14,106 nt of DNA, from the IMG/VR virus record IMGVR_UViG_2563366844_000002, positions 1-14,106 of that record, one strand, 5' to 3'. Source of the stretch: a virus. Taxonomy: Duplodnaviria > Heunggongvirae > Uroviricota > Caudoviricetes. The position numbers were made by a program, and so were the translations under genes. A model generated the notes under the pieces. The model had not been told where the DNA came from. It saw only the letters and a list, made by a program, of their open reading frames with translations, and did no database searches. Positions 8,052 to 12,692 of the stretch are shown here, piece by piece. The first letter of the stretch is position 1. Every line of letters starts with the position of its first letter.

Positions 8052-10175
8052 TTAATCTTCTGCCTCAGGCTGGAACATCATCACGTAAAAAACATGCTGC
8101 TTACCCCCAATTTTGCCGAGCGCCTTTTTCTTGTAACGGCGATCGTTACCCGCTTCCAGCATTCCGGCAGCACTCAACGCGCGGGCAAAGTGGGACGGGT
8201 TAAATCCCTGTGCGATCTCCCCCTCAAACACATGAGGAAACGTGTAAAAACGGAACTCATCATCTTCATTTCTGATACTCCCCTTTCTGTATCCGGCAAG
8301 GTCTTTAATCGGTAAATCACGTTCATCACTGTTTGGGTAAGGAAGGTATCGACTGAACCCGAACGACGACAAAAACGCCTCAGCCTGTTCAACCATCTGT
8401 TTAAATTCCCTGTTACCCGTGCCGAACTCCTTCACCCAGGCATTAAAGTTATGCTGTATTGCGTCCCGGCATTCCTGCGCGGCCCAGCCAGTTACATGAC
8501 CGGAAAGCACAAGCGCAGCCTCCAGTATCGCGAAACGTTCCCCCACGCGGTGGACCTGCTCGCCGTAGCTCTCCGGTATCAGGTTGCGCCACCGTTCGCG
8601 GCATTCCCTTACCGTATCCTTTGCCTCCTGCTGGTGGTCTGCCAGCCATTTAACCCATTCACGACCCGCCGCCCCGTGATTTTCTGTCCAGGCATCTTTT
8701 AACGCGTCTGCGTGCGCCTTTCCGGTGCTGTATTCGTGAAATTGCGTGGCTTTTTCCATCGGAACGTTAAGCAGGCGGACAAGCTGCCCCGCTTTGACTT
8801 TTATCCCCTCCGTTTTGAGGAATGTCTCAACGTCCATTTCTCCGGTGCTGATTGCCACCGTGCGCCAGTGTTTTATCTCCCGGTTGCCGCCGTCCTTCGC
8901 CCCCTGTAATTTCCCGGAGCCGTTAAACAACGTATAGGCTGACGTGGACACCTCCCGCGCGTTTCCGGCCTGACCTATTTCATCCAGGGGTAACAGCCCG
9001 TCGTTGTGTGCCTCTGCCTCGTTGGCGATACCTAACGCCGTTCCGTACCAGGTAAGCCGTTGTGCGTCCGGCTCTCCCCATAAACTTGATGCGATGTTCT
9101 GCGTGGTGGTTTTCCCTGCCGATGACTGTTCGAAAAGATGTACCCCGAAGCCGTCAGCACCAACAAGGCCAATCAAAGGTGCTGACAGTGACGTGGCAAC
9201 ACCCAGCATCATGGACGGATTGCCACCAGCCAGCCGCGCCACGCTGTCACGCCAGCCCTCCGCCGTACCCGCAACCGAATAGCCATTAACAGCGGCACTT
9301 TTTCCGGTAAACAGGATCGGTTTTTCAGAATCACCAATGATTGAACCGTCCGGCATGATGTACGCGCCAAAATGCCAGCCTGTTGTTGTGCTTAGCTGCC
9401 ATTCCTCATGGCTTCCGCTTAACTGCATCCAGTCAGCCAGGATAGCCCTGTATTTGCCATTTGTTGTCACGTTCAGCCCGTGATCTTTAAGCAACCGCCA
9501 GCCGTCACGGTCGCCAATGCCACCACACGGGATCGCCATTGTGATGACTTCATGGTTTGCTAATTTTTTCCAGCGCATCACGCGGTAATGTTCTTTACCG
9601 ATCGTCCCCGTTCCCAGTAGTTCAAGCGGAGAACATAACCACGTCTCAGGCCGGATAATTTCGCCTGACTGCTTATCCACTTTGGGCGTTACCCAGAAAA
9701 CACCATCGACGCGACTTTCAACGCGGGGCTTTAATTCATCATCCTGATAGCATGGCTCTTTTTTCTTTACAGGCAGTTCAACTACCTTTTTCTTTTCCGC
9801 CAGCTCTGCCCGTTCACGTTCCAGATATTCACGCCAGTTCTCCCGTTTCTGGCTGTGCATTCCTTCAGGGTAATAATCAGCATCCCTGACACCTGCCGCT
9901 GCCAGTTTCTGCCCGATGGTATTAACAACCCCCGGACGCAATAACCCCGCCTGATAGAGACGCACGCGATAGCGCCCGTCCGGTACGATTTGCAGCTTAT
10001 CCAGTTCGGATAACTGCTGCTCACCAAGCCACACAGGAGGCACGTTATCGCCAGCCAGTCGCCCGTCCTGTTCCTGCCACTGCTTCGCATGTGCCCACGC
10101 ATCACTACCCGCAAAAATGATGACTTCCGTCATTTTGTCACGCGGCTGGTGTTTTAAATTTGGCGCTTTTTTCAT
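8052..10175 (-). CDS. Replication protein, primase/helicase-like with P-loop NTPase (Pri-Rep-like)
   Basis: About 707 aa from the ATG at 10175-10173 (preceded by GGAGAGAG). Walker A-like motif SSAGKTT in the central region and an N-terminal region that looks toprim/primase-like. ATGA overlap with the upstream 99-aa ORF. Confidence 0.75.
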   Translation of the reverse strand: MKKAPNLKHQPRDKMTEVIIFAGSDAWAHAKQWQEQDGRLAGDNVPPVWLGEQQLSELDKLQIVPDGRYRVRLYQAGLLRPGVVNTIGQKLAAAGVRDADYYPEGMHSQKRENWREYLERERAELAEKKKVVELPVKKKEPCYQDDELKPRVESRVDGVFWVTPKVDKQSGEIIRPETWLCSPLELLGTGTIGKEHYRVMRWKKLANHEVITMAIPCGGIGDRDGWRLLKDHGLNVTTNGKYRAILADWMQLSGSHEEWQLSTTTGWHFGAYIMPDGSIIGDSEKPILFTGKSAAVNGYSVAGTAEGWRDSVARLAGGNPSMMLGVATSLSAPLIGLVGADGFGVHLFEQSSAGKTTTQNIASSLWGEPDAQRLTWYGTALGIANEAEAHNDGLLPLDEIGQAGNAREVSTSAYTLFNGSGKLQGAKDGGNREIKHWRTVAISTGEMDVETFLKTEGIKVKAGQLVRLLNVPMEKATQFHEYSTGKAHADALKDAWTENHGAAGREWVKWLADHQQEAKDTVRECRERWRNLIPESYGEQVHRVGERFAILEAALVLSGHVTGWAAQECRDAIQHNFNAWVKEFGTGNREFKQMVEQAEAFLSSFGFSRYLPYPNSDERDLPIKDLAGYRKGSIRNEDDEFRFYTFPHVFEGEIAQGFNPSHFARALSAAGMLEAGNDRRYKKKALGKIGGKQHVFYVMMFQPEAED

Positions 10176-10471
10176 TTCTGCTCTCTCCACGCGGCAATCA
10201 TGTTTTTCAGTTCCTGTAGTTTTTTATCAACATCCATACATGACACATGGTTATTTCTGGAAAGCGGGATTTCCCGCCGGAATCTGCAAATAAAGATCTC
10301 CACGTTCAGCGAACTATGAAATGAATAGCCATCACGAATAAAATACACACGGTCAAACATCAGTCCTTTTACCGTTACTCTGTTACCGTTCTTATCCAGA
10401 TAAATAGCGCCGGGGATAATTTTGGGGTGTGCATAACCGCTGGCAGTCAAGCCAGATAAATATGTTCTCAT
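10172..10471 (-). CDS. Hypothetical 99-aa basic protein (AT-rich gene)
   Basis: ATG at 10471-10469 with GGGGA upstream. Stop overlaps the primase start (ATGA). Local GC is visibly lower than flanking genes. No family recognised. Confidence 0.55.
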   Translation of the reverse strand: MRTYLSGLTASGYAHPKIIPGAIYLDKNGNRVTVKGLMFDRVYFIRDGYSFHSSLNVEIFICRFRREIPLSRNNHVSCMDVDKKLQELKNMIAAWREQK

Positions 10472-10477
10472 GATTAT

Positions 10478-10798
10478 TTATCCCCGATTTGAATCAGTAT
10501 TCGCTTTCTTTATGGCATTTAATGCATCTGCAGCATTTTCAATGGTGCACCGTAACGAAATATCAAACTGCCCAAGCATTGCCAGTAACAAACCGATATT
10601 ACCCATATCAATGCGCATAGCCTTTTCGTCATAGTCCTCATTTTCTGACGCATGCCACATCAGGCTACCAATTGACGCAATACCCATTGATATATTGTCA
10701 GTAGCCCCATACGCAGCGGAATAAACCTTTTTAGCAATATCATGCTCACAGTTAAAATGCGGATTAATCAGGTACTGGTAATTTGACATATCAGGCAT
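10478..10798 (-). CDS. Hypothetical 106-aa acidic protein (AT-rich gene)
   Basis: ATG at 10798-10796 preceded by AGGGGG at SD distance; 8-nt overlap with the upstream small ORF. No family recognised. Confidence 0.55.
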   Translation of the reverse strand: MPDMSNYQYLINPHFNCEHDIAKKVYSAAYGATDNISMGIASIGSLMWHASENEDYDEKAMRIDMGNIGLLLAMLGQFDISLRCTIENAADALNAIKKANTDSNRG

Positions 10799-10994
10799 GG
10801 CACACCCCCTGACGAATACGGGCGGCGAATACCATCACGCAGCCAGCCGGGGATTGCTGGCGTGCTTCCTGTTCGCTGGTGGCCTCAATGGTAATCACGC
10901 GCGGTTGTGCCGTGCTCAGGGCGATAAAACGCCAGATGTATTTATTCAGGTTGTGCGAGTCCCGCCCTTGCGGGTGTGTGGTATGATTTAACAT
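10791..10994 (-). CDS. Possible 67-aa protein (3' portion of the long ORF 10791..11456)
   Basis: Internal ATG at 10994-10992 is preceded by GAGG with a 5-nt spacer. Its stop overlaps the start of the 106-aa ORF. The upstream part of the 221-aa ORF is rejected (see noticed_but_rejected). Confidence 0.35.
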   Translation of the reverse strand: MLNHTTHPQGRDSHNLNKYIWRFIALSTAQPRVITIEATSEQEARQQSPAGCVMVFAARIRQGVCHA

Positions 10995-11029
10995 AGCTAC
11001 CTCGATACTGTTGCTATCGTTGGTGGTTA

Positions 11030-11064
11030 GAAGCCCGGTTAGTGTTCCCGCACTGCCGGGCTTC
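11030..11064. promoter_or_regulatory. Inverted repeat GAAGCCCGG-N17-CCGGGCTTC in the divergent regulatory region
   Basis: 9-bp perfect arms at 11030-11038 and 11056-11064. No U-run on either side, so it is more likely a protein-binding site or RNA structure than a terminator. Confidence 0.3.
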
Positions 11065-11094
11065 GCTGTATTTAATGGTTGCGTATTTTTAATG

Positions 11095-11139
11095 TGGTAC
11101 GTACCATTTGATTTCAGTTTATAACGATGGTACGTACCA
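11095..11139. promoter_or_regulatory. Two identical 12-bp perfect palindromes TGGTACGTACCA (operator candidates)
   Basis: Copies at 11095-11106 and 11128-11139, centres 33 bp apart. The second abuts the ATG of the plus-strand RHH gene at 11140. AT-rich -10-like hexamers on both strands lie between them (around 11118-11125). Confidence 0.6.
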
Positions 11140-11322
11140 ATGCAAGAAGAAAATGTGAAACCAAAATTTGATCGCTCCGGCAGCACAAAGAAAAACATCC
11201 GCTTCGAAGACACATTGTTGCAACAAATTAACGAAGTTGCAGGGCCTGGTAATTTCAGCTCATGGGTAAAAAATGCTTGTCGTGATAAGCTACGCAAAGA
11301 AGGCATAGAACCCAAAGGCTGA
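11140..11322 (+). CDS. Small ribbon-helix-helix-like DNA-binding protein (putative regulator), divergent from the replication operon
   Basis: 60 aa; KKNIRFEDTLLQQINEVAG...NFSSWVKNACRDKLRKEG fits a beta-strand plus two-helix RHH layout. It has its own downstream plus-strand terminator at 11417-11446. No clear SD, so possibly leaderless. Confidence 0.5.
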   Translation: MQEENVKPKFDRSGSTKKNIRFEDTLLQQINEVAGPGNFSSWVKNACRDKLRKEGIEPKG

Positions 11323-11416
11323 CAGCCAACCAGCAAGCCAGCACACTGATCACATTGCCCACCAGCCGCAAATGTGGCATTGTTGGTGATGCGTTCAAGT
11401 TTAGTGTGTATCCATT

Positions 11417-11446
11417 GGCGACCGCCCCCGGTCGCCTTTGTTTTAT
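11417..11446 (+). terminator. Rho-independent terminator downstream of the RHH gene
   Basis: Stem GGCGACCG (11417-11424) / CGGTCGCC (11429-11436) with a 4-nt loop, followed by TTTGTTTTAT (11437-11446). There is no U-run in the minus orientation. Confidence 0.6.
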
Positions 11447-11461
11447 GTGCCATCACTCCCC

Positions 11462-11665
11462 CTATGCTGCCTTACCTGAATTAACTCGGTCACGGTTTTG
11501 CACCCAGTCCATAACTTCGGAAAGCAACCAACCTACAGAACGCCCACCAAGATTACGGCGAGACGGAAAGCTCCCTTTTTTCTCCAGTTCATAGCGAGTG
11601 GTACGGCTAACCCCGGTTAACTTACTGCATTCAGCCTCACGGATTATGCGGTCAAATTGAGCCAT
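11462..11665 (-). CDS. alpA: AlpA-family transcriptional regulator
   Basis: From the ATG at 11665-11663 the 67-aa product MAQFDRIIREAECSKLTGVSRTTRYELEKKGSFPSRRNLGGRSVGWLLSEVMDWVQNR has the typical AlpA HTH pattern. Start is preceded by GGGGGGAGTG. Confidence 0.8.
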   Translation of the reverse strand: MAQFDRIIREAECSKLTGVSRTTRYELEKKGSFPSRRNLGGRSVGWLLSEVMDWVQNRDRVNSGKAA

Positions 11666-11675
11666 CACTCCCCCC

Positions 11676-11864
11676 TTACACCGTCTGCGTTCTGCGAGTG
11701 GATGCAAGATAAGCATCGAGATCAGTGCGCATATACAGCACTTTGCGCCCCAGCTTATGAAAAGGGATTTTTACCTTGCCAGTACACGCCCAGTTAGCAA
11801 GAGTCTGGACACTTACCCCCAAATGCTCGGCAGCTTCTTTGCGGGTCATCTTTTCTAAATGCAT
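11676..11864 (-). CDS. Excisionase-family (MerR-like HTH) DNA-binding protein
   Basis: KEAAEHLGVSVQTLANWACTGKVKIPFHKLGRKVLYMRTDLDAYLAS fits the excisionase/HTH_17 pattern. ATG at 11864 is preceded by GGTGA; alternative starts are GTG at 11873 or ATG at 11849. Confidence 0.7.
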   Translation of the reverse strand: MHLEKMTRKEAAEHLGVSVQTLANWACTGKVKIPFHKLGRKVLYMRTDLDAYLASTRRTQTV

Positions 11865-12005: not shown

Positions 12006-12692
12006 TTATTCTTTGTCTCCAATAACTAACTTAAAATCCCTGTTTTTTTGCGGGGATTTTGGATTCATCCCCGACTCCTTAAGCCATCTCTCTATAGTCC
12101 CAACTACAGGGACATCATTCCATTTATTGCGTAAGTGCGCGTATATCTCTGCGGATAGCCCGGGTAAACTGGCATTAGGGTATTTTTTCCAAGTGTTACA
12201 AGCTATAGATAACGCTGTTGATTTATGCCTGTTTGTTTTTCCTTTCTTTGCTTTACTACGGTCTTCACTGATAATTTTCTTTACATTAGCTATATCACGT
12301 ACTGATTTTAATAAATTCTCCGACACTAAAATCGCATATCTTTCACGTAACTGATCTGCAAGTCTGTTGAAACCAAGAACTTCAAATATAATGGCAGCTT
12401 TCAAAATATCATTGAATTCTGAATATGCACTATTAAATTTTTTATCAAAATCATCTCCATATCCGGCACATACAGAAATATTAACCTTTAAATCCTTATT
12501 TTCTATCTCTGACGATAATGATAATCTTTCCTCCAGAGACATTTTAGATGGTGTGATATTTGCCATATCGCATATCGTTTTTTTTACAAAAGAAGACGCC
12601 AGTTCATCTCTAATATAATCTGCAATAGTATTCATATCCTTCGCATCATTATGGTCAAATTCTATTGCAGCAATGATTTTATTTTCTGACAT
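12006..12692 (-). CDS. Hypothetical 228-aa protein, strongly AT-rich (putative accessory/cargo gene)
   Basis: ATG at 12692-12690 preceded by GGTGG; start overlaps the integrase stop by 14 nt. GC is markedly lower than the rest of the element by eye. No family recognised; the C-terminal third may be helix-rich/HTH-like (weak impression). Confidence 0.7.
   Translation of the reverse strand: MSENKIIAAIEFDHNDAKDMNTIADYIRDELASSFVKKTICDMANITPSKMSLEERLSLSSEIENKDLKVNISVCAGYGDDFDKKFNSAYSEFNDILKAAIIFEVLGFNRLADQLRERYAILVSENLLKSVRDIANVKKIISEDRSKAKKGKTNRHKSTALSIACNTWKKYPNASLPGLSAEIYAHLRNKWNDVPVVGTIERWLKESGMNPKSPQKNRDFKLVIGDKE

What the first reader, a model, noticed from the sequence alone, without database searches (positions are those of the whole stretch)
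10172..10994. AT-rich small-gene cassette (about 67, 106 and 99 aa) chained by overlapping stop/start codons to the primase gene
Three small ORFs lie directly upstream of the replication gene with ATGA-type or 8-nt overlaps, implying tight translational coupling. The 106-aa (acidic) and 99-aa (basic) genes are noticeably AT-richer than the primase. None matches a family I recognise. An acidic/basic pair of about 100 aa each is a shape often seen for toxin-antitoxin-like or anti-defence modules, but they could equally be replication accessory or helper-derepression proteins.
Basis: inference. Interest (0 to 1): 0.55.

Follow-up and report, generated by a model that had tools for sequence, protein, structure and literature searches.

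The report
Satellite early operon: Kil/Icd, RgdR-like genes
The three small genes are real and conserved: they open the replication operon of a known kind of E. coli phage satellite (a capsid-forming PICI), two of them belong to described families (Kil/Icd and RgdR/DUF4222), and the new element is a conserved antisense RNA facing the first gene's ribosome-binding site.

Summary
Minus-strand ORFs of 67, 106 and 99 aa lie directly upstream of the primase, and the 106- and 99-aa genes are acidic/basic and AT-richer. One detail is wrong: the 106→99 junction is a 6-nt gap, not an overlap.

The window is a capsid-forming PICI satellite. The 67-aa protein belongs to the Icd/Kil family (NF033153), as does P4 Kil. 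The 99-aa protein is DUF4222, 32% identical to RgdR of EHEC island OI-51 and in the same ATGA-coupled position, but it lacks the RGD motif. The 106-aa protein is an uncharacterised helical hairpin found at the same position in other enterobacterial satellites.

Gene order and junction geometry are fixed across 77 related loci and mirror P4's kil–ε–orf151–orf106–α operon. Nothing supports a toxin–antitoxin or defence pair, and the alleles reassort.

The new element is a ~75-nt structured RNA on the opposite strand (10995–11072). It covers the Kil/Icd ribosome-binding site, shows strong covariation and has a conserved −10. It is weakly SymR-like. Sister loci carry C4/IsrK immunity RNAs upstream of their complete Icd-like gene, in addition to a copy of this RNA.

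My proposal is that this RNA gates translation of the leader ORF, and through it the operon. That step is inferred.

The parts
10791..10994 (-). 67-aa Icd/Kil-family leader ORF, the first gene of the early operon
   Evidence: It matches NF033153 phage_ICD_like at 1.5e-19, 69.8 bits against a cutoff of 25, and phrog_1743 and phrog_6196. P4 Kil hits the same NCBIfam model (1.6e-21) and phrog_1743. It is 50% identical to ECs1577 of Sakai Sp7. SD GAGG lies at 11000-11003.
10478..10798 (-). 106-aa acidic helical-hairpin protein of unknown function (phrog_15327/phrog_6805 family)
   Evidence: It matches phrog_15327 at 8e-70 and has no Pfam, NCBIfam or PADLOC hit. Relatives of about 100 aa at 25-41% identity come from a full HMMER scan. 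They occupy the same position in other satellites. The AF2 model has two long helices, pLDDT 81.7. No fold match reaches E<0.5.
10172..10471 (-). 99-aa basic DUF4222 protein, RgdR family, ATGA-coupled to the primase
8052..10175 (-). Replication protein (DUF927 primase/helicase, 707 aa) that the cassette is chained to
   Evidence: PF06048 at 7.9e-47 and phrog_1139 DNA primase at 7e-180. Its first ~120 aa are shared with a D5_N/DUF5906-type replicase in sister loci.
10995..11072 (+). Predicted ~75-nt cis-antisense RNA covering the SD and 5'UTR of the Kil/Icd gene: two hairpins followed by a U-rich tail
   Evidence: There is a sub-threshold Rfam SymR match (34.9 bits, E 0.0017, full model). On alignment A4, 98.0% of cells pair on this strand (98 of them G-U) against 82.9% on the sense strand. 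The covariance model R1 gives 84 hits, all on this strand. 12 of 25 pairs show compensatory changes. The fold is -38.2 kcal/mol, z -5.9.
10979..10987 (+). Extended -10 (TGGTATGAT) for the antisense RNA, inside codons 3-6 of the Kil/Icd gene
   Evidence: Read from the sequence. The equivalent TGnTATGAT, TATAAT, TATGCT or TAGAAT is kept in all allele types and in the distant loci L080, L084 and L089.
11095..11139 (.). Two identical 12-bp palindromes, TGGTACGTACCA (11128-11139 and 11095-11106): candidate operators
   Evidence: Read from the sequence. They flank a candidate -10. The corresponding region in sister loci carries other repeats next to TTGACA-like hexamers.
11118..11145 (-). Candidate early-operon promoter: TTGCAT, 16 nt, TATAAA
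   Evidence: Identified by hand from the sequence. The consensus scan did not call it. This is an inference.
11140..11322 (+). Divergent 60-aa YlcI/YnfO (DUF3950) gene, a candidate regulator
   Evidence: PF13132 at 5.6e-08 and NF041551 at 31.1 bits against a cutoff of 30. It is annotated in the near-identical E. coli island.
11462..11665 (-). AlpA, the known activator of Gram-negative PICIs, upstream on the same strand
   Evidence: PF05930 at 3.1e-17. It is 48% identical to P4 Vis/ORF88. Its role is described in PMC6092414.

Best explanation
The cassette is the promoter-proximal part of the early/replication operon of a capsid-forming PICI of the EcCIEDL933/OI-51 type. It is built like the left operon of satellite P4 (kil, epsilon, orf151, orf106, alpha).

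Gene 1 (67 aa) is a Kil/Icd-family leader ORF. Its ribosome-binding site is covered by a constitutively made cis-antisense RNA of about 75 nt, transcribed from a -10 inside the gene. While that RNA is in excess, I propose that the leader is not translated and the downstream genes stay silent, through loss of translational coupling and probably Rho polarity, as shown for P1 c4-icd-ant and P4 CI-kil/eta. When helper-phage-driven transcription (AlpA, operator derepression) outruns the RNA, the leader is translated and the chain opens: 8-nt overlap to the 106-aa gene, 6-nt gap to the 99-aa gene, ATGA to the primase. Kil/Icd itself probably arrests host division.

Gene 3 (99 aa) is an RgdR-family protein: a small Tudor/SH3-like barrel with a basic helix. 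It probably acts as a low-specificity DNA- or RNAP-associated factor made together with the replicase.

Gene 2 (106 aa) is an acidic helical-hairpin protein-binding factor of unknown target, in the position of P4's helper-derepression gene.

Shown: family memberships, synteny, junction conservation, and the structure and strand of the RNA. Inferred: regulation by the RNA, polarity, and the functions of the 106- and 99-aa proteins.
For: Element type: the best E. coli match (98.7% identity over the 1-kb region) carries int, alpA, primase, SSB, capsid, protease, portal, connector, HNH, terS and terL between clpS and cspD. The prototype is Sp7/OI-51.

Families.

P4 parallel: vis/alpA, then an ORF whose C-terminal 65 aa is Kil, then an 8-nt overlap to epsilon, an 8-nt overlap to orf151, then orf106 and alpha.

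Invariant junctions.

Antisense RNA.

Sister loci L003 and L008 carry bona fide C4 (82 and 75 bits) and IsrK RNAs directly upstream of their complete Icd-like gene. They also retain an R1 antisense-RNA copy further upstream, opposite a truncated icd start. C4/IsrK hits in Gram-negative PICIs are already reported (PMC10111431).

Experimental precedent: in ECOR61, a 6-gene prophage locus with an Icd-like gene and a primase arrests growth when a phage gene is expressed, and Icd-like is the likely effector (bioRxiv 10.1101/2023.04.06.535777). RgdR binds DNA non-specifically and has pleiotropic effects on transcription (PMC3378721). RgdR is 'encoded by all the analysed E. coli PICIs' (PMC6092414).
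Against: There is no expression data for the RNA or the ORFs.

The SymR match is far below Rfam's gathering score (34.9 against 61). The reciprocal hit is weak (24.2 bits, filters off, on a 2.5-kb search).

The consensus promoter scan found neither of the promoters I assigned by hand.

In the window, the U-tract after hairpin 2 is interrupted (GCUGUAUUU). The transcript could therefore read on into the YlcI-like gene and act as its leader.

Each gene has its own SD, so strict translational coupling is not required.

Confidence: 0.6

Rival explanations
1. The acidic 106-aa and basic 99-aa proteins form a toxin-antitoxin or anti-defence pair carried as cargo by the island.
For: The charges are opposite (pI 4.76 and 9.74), the sizes are similar, GC is lower than in the neighbours, and the two genes are always 6 nt apart.
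Against: There is no match to any TA or defence model. The 106-aa gene pairs with a 38%-identical RgdR-type partner in L045 and L063. RgdR occurs without it in Sp7. Distant 106-aa relatives are followed by unrelated 112-122-aa genes. The pair lies inside a polycistronic replication operon rather than in the int-alpA cargo slot. RgdR expressed alone from a plasmid was not reported to be toxic (PMC3378721).
Confidence: 0.06
2. The 99-aa protein, and perhaps the 106-aa protein, are replication accessory factors of the primase/helicase, acting in origin melting, loading or recruitment.
For: The ATGA coupling to the replicase is found in 72 of 72 loci. The gene is universal in E. coli PICIs (PMC6092414). 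It stays with the first ~60-120 aa of the replicase even when the helicase body is swapped between the DUF927 and D5_N/DUF5906 types. It has a basic helix and non-specific DNA binding.
Against: Linkage to the primase N-terminus decays with distance, as expected from adjacency alone. Distant satellites with the same DUF927 replicase have non-homologous genes in that slot. RgdR has transcriptional phenotypes in uninduced cells.
Confidence: 0.2
3. The 106-aa protein is the functional equivalent of P4 epsilon. It would be a small anti-repressor or helper-directed factor made first after the leader, which derepresses or interferes with the helper prophage.
For: It occupies the same slot as epsilon, with the same 8-nt overlap on the Kil/Icd stop. 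Its acidic helical hairpin suits protein binding. Its alleles are narrow in distribution and fast-evolving.
Against: It shows no sequence similarity to epsilon or the Derepression family. Sp7 has unrelated small ORFs in this slot. cf-PICIs are described as induced by the helper, not as inducing it.
Confidence: 0.12
4. The structured + strand element is not a separate sRNA. It would be the 5' leader of a longer leftward transcript for the divergent YlcI-like regulator (a PRE-like establishment transcript), or merely a terminator.
For: In the window the YlcI-like gene lies 70 nt downstream on the same strand, and the U-tract is weak.
Against: The element is conserved in 82 loci, and most of them have no detectable YlcI homologue. 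Many alleles have good U-tracts, for example GCUUUUUU in Sp7. Hairpin 1, which covers the SD, is also conserved with G-U pairs specific to this strand.
Confidence: 0.15

Closest known systems
Left (early) operon of satellite phage P4: kil/eta, epsilon, orf151, orf106, alpha, under CI RNA immunity
   Same: An AlpA/Vis gene lies upstream. The first ORF belongs to the same Icd/Kil family (NF033153, phrog_1743). The next gene overlaps its stop by 8 nt. A chain of small genes ends in the primase. RNA-based control of the leader is demonstrated in P4 and inferred here.
   Different: No detectable homology to epsilon or orf106, and only a weak hint between DUF4222 and the orf151 N-terminus (hhalign E 0.0019, probability 14%). 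The replicase is a DUF927 type, not alpha. There is no C4/CI RNA in the window. The RNA here is cis-antisense with its own promoter, not processed from the sense transcript. The island carries its own capsid genes and has no sid/psu/delta.
RgdR (ECs1581) of EHEC O157 OI-51/CP-933C/Sp7, which is the cf-PICI EcCIEDL933
   Same: Both are DUF4222 proteins of 99 aa. Both lie immediately upstream of the island primase and overlap it by ATGA. Both have the same barrel-plus-helix layout.
   Different: Identity is only 32%. Residues 20-22 are PGA, not RGD. An R20C change alone abolished LEE activation and DNA binding in the ED1a variant, so this allele probably does not activate type III secretion.
P1/P7 immI module (c4 antisense RNA, icd, ant)
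   Same: A small Icd-family ORF is the target of an immunity RNA at its ribosome-binding site, and its translation is needed for the downstream gene to be expressed. This is established knowledge for P1 and an inferred parallel here. Sister loci L003 and L008 carry true C4 and IsrK RNAs upstream of their Icd-like gene.
   Different: The window has no C4 match. The downstream genes are replication genes, not an antirepressor. P1 Icd itself was not compared here.
SymR/SymE type I toxin-antitoxin of E. coli K-12
   Same: A 77-nt cis-antisense RNA has its promoter inside the 5' end of the target ORF, covers the SD and start codon, and has two hairpins. Weak similarity runs both ways in the same register (Rfam SymR on the window at 34.9 bits; R1's best hit in the K-12 locus is symR itself at 24.2 bits; alignment).
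   Different: The match is below Rfam's gathering score. The target protein is Kil/Icd-like, not the AbrB-fold SymE. The target here leads a long operon rather than being a single gene.

Membership tests
Capsid-forming PICI (cf-PICI) | int, alpA and pri-rep plus its own capsid, protease, portal, connectors, HNH, terS and terL; no tail or lysis genes; about 15 kb | tested here: met
   The near-identical E. coli island is annotated with exactly these genes between clpS and cspD. The matching ORFs are present in the window. The definition comes from bioRxiv 10.1101/2022.09.08.507074.
Icd/Kil family (NCBIfam NF033153 phage_ICD_like) | Match to the family model above its curated cutoff | tested here: met
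   The 67-aa protein scores 69.8 bits against a cutoff of 25. P4 Kil scores 76.1 bits on the same model.
Icd/Kil family (NCBIfam NF033153 phage_ICD_like) | First ORF downstream of the immunity/regulatory region, with its stop overlapped by the next gene | tested here: met
   An 8-nt overlap is present in the window and in 70 of 75 loci. P4 has the same geometry.
Icd/Kil family (NCBIfam NF033153 phage_ICD_like) | Inhibits cell division or kills when expressed | not testable with these tools
   Only a precedent is available: the ECOR61 Icd-like effector.
RgdR / DUF4222 (PF13973) | Match to PF13973 above the gathering score, and detectable similarity to ECs1581 | tested here: met
   62.5 bits against 27. 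BLASTP against RgdR gives 32% identity over the full length, E 6e-14.
RgdR / DUF4222 (PF13973) | RGD motif at residues 20-22, required for LEE1/T3S activation and DNA binding | tested here: not met
   The window protein has P20-G21-A22. The requirement comes from PMC3378721.
SymR RNA (Rfam RF01809) | Score at or above the Rfam gathering threshold (61 bits) | tested here: not met
   34.9 bits, E 0.0017.
SymR RNA (Rfam RF01809) | cis-antisense to the SD/start of a small ORF, with its own promoter inside that ORF | tested here: met
   This rests on position and strand, G-U asymmetry, and the conserved -10. Transcription itself was not tested.
SymR RNA (Rfam RF01809) | Reciprocal detection of K-12 symR by a model of the new RNA | tested here: inconclusive
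   There was no hit with default filters. With filters off, the best hit in the 2.5-kb locus is symR, in the same register, at 24.2 bits.
C4 / P4-CI immunity RNA (Rfam RF01695, RF01394) | Covariance-model match upstream of the icd/kil ORF on the sense strand | tested here: not met
   There is no match in the window at E<=1. Sister loci L003 and L008 do match (82 and 75 bits).
Type II toxin-antitoxin pair | Match of either partner to a known toxin or antitoxin family, and strict co-inheritance of the two partners | tested here: not met
   No hits in Pfam, NCBIfam or PADLOC. The partners reassort.
P4 epsilon (PF25738 Derepression) | Sequence or profile similarity of the 106-aa protein to epsilon | tested here: not met
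   No Pfam hit. hhalign of A3 against epsilon gives probability 0.1%.

The most novel reading that the evidence does not exclude
E. coli PICIs and cf-PICIs, for which no master repressor has been identified, may be held quiescent by a SymR-related cis-antisense RNA. That RNA would block translation of a Kil/Icd leader ORF. This amounts to a type-I-toxin-antitoxin-like switch gating the whole replication operon, interchangeable in evolution with the C4/CI-type immunity RNAs of P1 and P4. The 106-aa hairpin protein, the first product released, would be a new helper- or host-directed effector occupying the epsilon slot.
Probability: 0.35. Interest if true: 0.65.

Novelty: new variant of a known kind. 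Interest (0 to 1): 0.45.

Why it matters
Fillol-Salom et al. [quoted passage not shown] What is known is that AlpA activates them and that helper phages induce alpA.

A conserved antisense RNA over the first ribosome-binding site of the early operon is a concrete, testable candidate for the missing 'off' switch. So are the candidate operator palindromes and the divergent YlcI-like gene. The RNA is present in 82 of the 87 sources searched, including the prototype EcCIEDL933/Sp7.

The work also gives RgdR, known only as a virulence regulator of EHEC, a native genomic context: the gene coupled to the satellite replicase, with a Tudor-like fold. And it shows that this allele lacks the motif needed for LEE activation.

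For genome annotation, the PHROG label 'transcriptional repressor' on Kil/Icd families probably traces to the old P4 'cI protein' record and should not be propagated.

Tried and rejected
- tblastn of the 99-aa protein against GenBank phages found only chance hits. The same search with the 67-aa protein found only one cf-PICI-like 'phage'.
- The word-indexed protein search returned only close relatives of the 106- and 99-aa proteins. The full HMMER scan was needed to reach distant 106-aa relatives.
- Foldseek against PDB and BFVD with the 106-aa model returned only generic helical hairpins such as UvsY, EsxB and occludin, all at E>0.5.
- PADLOC gave nothing for any gene, including the AT-rich 228-aa gene.
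- The genome-contig scan with the 106-aa profile returned a single locus, in Superficieibacter.
- I considered that the 106-aa protein is related to Sp7 ECs1580 or ECs1579, which are also small helical proteins. BLASTP does not support this.
- I considered that the 221-aa ORF (10791-11456), in frame with Kil/Icd, is a true Eta-like long form. The frame is open for 150-400 codons in most loci, and it starts right after alpA with the same SD-ATG context. However, its 'conserved N-terminus' coincides with a + strand terminator hairpin that shows compensatory changes, and it overlaps the YlcI-like gene. This is left unresolved.
- I considered co-variation between DUF4222 alleles and the primase N-terminus. 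The pattern fits simple linkage.
- The literature searches returned no paper linking SymR to phage satellites, and nothing on sRNAs in the papers that name ECs1577-ECs1581.
Full report
**What is in the sequence**

All relevant genes are on the minus strand. In order they are:
- integrase (12679 to the window end)
- an AT-rich 228-aa ORF
- an HTH_17 gene (11676-11864)
- AlpA (11462-11665)
- a divergent + strand YlcI/YnfO-like ORF (11140-11322)
- the three ORFs of the finding: 67 aa (10791-10994), 106 aa (10478-10798) and 99 aa (10172-10471)
- a DUF927 primase/helicase (ATG at 10175), SSB, an 82-aa ORF, then capsid, protease, portal, connector, HNH, terS and terL

The junctions are an 8-nt overlap (ATGCCTGA), a 6-nt spacer and an ATGA overlap.

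The composition claims hold. GC is 0.405 and 0.420 against 0.535 for the primase, and pI is 4.76 and 9.74.

**What element this is**

Some part of the 1-kb region matches 1491 of 5426 complete E. coli genomes; 446 cover at least 80% of it. The best hit (98.7% identity over that 1-kb region) lies in an island of about 13 kb between clpS and cspD. PGAP annotates it with integrase, an HTH regulator, YlcI/YnfO, Icd-like, a hypothetical protein, DUF4222, primase, SSB, and a full capsid and packaging set but no tails.

That is the gene content of capsid-forming PICIs, whose prototype is EcCIEDL933. The same element is known as O-island 51, CP-933C or Sp7 in EHEC.

**The three proteins**

*The 67-aa protein.* It matches NCBIfam phage_ICD_like well above the cutoff and is 50% identical to ECs1577 of Sp7. 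I fetched P4. The 65 C-terminal residues of its old 'cI' ORF start MATTLTPSHPEF and correspond to what the P4 literature calls Kil. They hit the same NCBIfam model (76 bits) and the same PHROG family. The 67-aa gene is therefore a Kil/Icd-family gene. The PHROG label 'transcriptional repressor' probably traces to the obsolete P4 cI-protein annotation, which carries that product name in the record.

*The 106-aa protein.* It has no Pfam, NCBIfam or PADLOC match and belongs to phrog_15327. Close relatives are almost all from E. coli. A full HMMER scan of 1.84 billion representatives found about ten relatives of ~100 aa at 25-41% identity. They share the motif IGxLMFxAxxNExY...DMxxIGxLL. AF2 gives a two-helix hairpin at pLDDT 81.7, with no informative structural neighbour.

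**Comparative genomics of the alpA-to-primase interval**

Seventy-seven IMG/VR loci carry the 106-aa gene. In them the order Icd-like, 106 aa, DUF4222, primase is constant. The junctions are -8 nt in 70 of 75, +6 nt in 76 of 76 and -4 nt in 72 of 72. The five exceptions carry a further tandem Icd-like copy.

Alleles reassort. Three Icd types that are about 50% identical to each other combine with the same 106-aa gene. In L045 and L063 the 106-aa gene is followed by an RgdR-type DUF4222. The replicase body switches between a DUF927 type and a D5_N/DUF5906/Pox_D5 type while keeping the first ~60-120 residues. Sp7 has three unrelated small ORFs in place of the 106-aa gene.

Distant 106-aa relatives sit in the same slot of other integrase-to-capsid islands. 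In one case the gene again follows an Icd-like ORF with an 8-nt overlap and precedes an AAA_25 replicase. In another it precedes a DUF927 replicase.

dN/dS of 0.36-0.56 indicates real but fast-evolving genes. None of this fits a co-inherited toxin-antitoxin pair.

**Parallel with P4**

P4's left operon runs as follows: vis(alpA), then eta/kil, then an 8-nt overlap to epsilon (helper derepression), an 8-nt overlap to orf151, then orf106 and alpha primase. The window has the same logic and the same first junction.

I found no homology between the 106-aa family and epsilon or orf106. There is only a weak hint between DUF4222 and the N-terminus of orf151.

An Rfam scan at relaxed threshold gave one hit: SymR (RF01809), on the + strand at 10995-11067, over the full model, at 34.9 bits against a gathering score of 61, E 0.0017. 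This is exactly antisense to the SD (GAGG, 11000-11003) and 5'UTR of the Kil/Icd gene.

The evidence that this is a real structured RNA on that strand:
- Across 28 distinct alleles the two hairpins are kept, with compensatory changes.
- 98.0% of pair cells are standard on the + strand, 98 of them G-U, against 82.9% on the sense strand.
- A covariance model built from these alleles found 84 copies in 87 sources, all on the strand antisense to the operon. These include Sp7 and the distant satellites L080, L084 and L089. It found none in P4.
- On that wider alignment, 12 of 25 pairs show changes on both sides, and 97.1% of cells pair against 87.2% in shuffles. No shuffle reached the observed value. 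The alignment is fitted to the model, which favours the structure.
- An extended -10 (TGGTATGAT, 10979-10987) sits 7 nt upstream, inside codons 3-6 of the gene. An equivalent hexamer is kept in every allele type.
- Many alleles end in a good U-tract.
- The + strand RNA folds at -38.2 kcal/mol (z -5.9), against -27.3 for the sense strand.

With filters off, the model's best hit in the K-12 symE locus is symR itself, in the same register, at 24.2 bits. This is a weak reciprocal link. I therefore call the RNA SymR-like in architecture and do not file it in RF01809.

**RNA control in sister loci**

L003 and L008 have the same downstream genes. They carry true C4 (82 and 75 bits) and IsrK RNAs upstream of their complete Icd-like gene. 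They also retain an R1 antisense-RNA copy further upstream, opposite a truncated icd start. Others have noted C4/IsrK hits in Gram-negative PICIs.

In P1 and P4, such RNAs block translation of icd or kil/eta, and this terminates transcription of the downstream genes. That is established knowledge; P4 is summarised. The constant feature is therefore 'Kil/Icd leader plus RNA', while the RNA type varies.

**Proposed mechanism**

The early promoter is a candidate I assigned by hand (TTGCAT, 16 nt, TATAAA, at 11118-11145). It is flanked by two TGGTACGTACCA palindromes and drives a leader of about 115 nt. The antisense RNA pairs with its last ~75 nt, including the SD. This keeps Kil/Icd untranslated and the operon polar.

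Helper-dependent activation through AlpA or through operator derepression would overcome this and release the chain of genes that ends in the primase. An ECOR61 locus of six genes, including an Icd-like gene and a primase, arrests growth when a phage gene is expressed, with Icd-like as the likely effector. That is an experimental precedent for the toxic output.

Shown here: family memberships, synteny, junction geometry, and the structure, strand and promoter conservation of the RNA. Inferred: that the RNA is made and represses, that polarity operates, and what the 106- and 99-aa proteins do.

**Verdict**

The finding is a real and tidy piece of anatomy, but mostly ordinary. It is the regulatory and early segment of a known satellite type, with two genes from described families. 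The toxin-antitoxin and anti-defence idea is not supported.

What is new is the SymR-like antisense RNA opposite the Kil/Icd leader, and an uncharacterised hairpin-protein family in the epsilon slot. Both bear on the open question of how Gram-negative PICIs are kept silent.

Noticed in passing
window 11095-11322: A divergent 60-aa YlcI/YnfO (DUF3950) ORF starts at 11140 with almost no leader. Next to it are two identical palindromes, TGGTACGTACCA, which bracket the candidate early promoter. This looks like a repressor-operator pair. Sister loci have different repeats in the same place.
   Followed up: partly
window 12006-12692 and 11676-11864: A very AT-rich (GC 0.34) 228-aa ORF with no Pfam, NCBIfam, PHROG or PADLOC match, plus an extra HTH_17/excisionase-like gene, lies between int and alpA. 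Both are absent from the closest E. coli island. They are 96-100% conserved in L006, L042 and L044, and about 26-34% relatives occupy the same slot elsewhere. This is a candidate cargo or defence slot.
   Followed up: partly
window 10791-11456 (minus strand): The Kil/Icd reading frame stays open for 154 codons upstream of its ATG. It begins right after the alpA stop with the same GGGGGAGTGATGGC context as alpA. The frame is open for 150-400 codons in most sister loci, recalling the nested eta/kil of P4. However, the 'conserved N-terminus' coincides with a + strand terminator hairpin (11417-11436), and the ORF overlaps the YlcI-like gene.
   Followed up: partly
window 9815-10175 (primase residues 1-120); L004, L010, L045: The first ~60-120 residues of the replicase form a module shared between two otherwise unrelated replicases (15-20% identity): a DUF927 type of 708 aa and a D5_N/DUF5906/Pox_D5 type of 583-606 aa. 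The recombination breakpoints therefore lie inside the gene.
   Followed up: partly
L003 2506-3120; L008 2578-3205; L045 2829-3843: Some sister islands carry a truncated icd 5' end with its antisense RNA, then IsrK and C4 RNAs, then one or two further complete Icd-like ORFs in tandem. This is a mosaic of two RNA-immunity systems.
   Followed up: partly
PHROG families 1743, 6196 and 6928: These families are labelled 'transcriptional repressor'. The label probably derives from the obsolete protein annotation of P4 cI, which carries that product name in the record. P4 CI is an RNA, and the ORF encodes Eta/Kil.
   Followed up: yes
L088 (E. coli K-12 symE/symR) against window 10960-11085: The similarity between the symR region and the satellite antisense RNA extends into the promoter and the first codons of the target genes. 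This hints that the 5' regulatory module of symE and that of satellite kil/icd genes share ancestry.
   Followed up: partly
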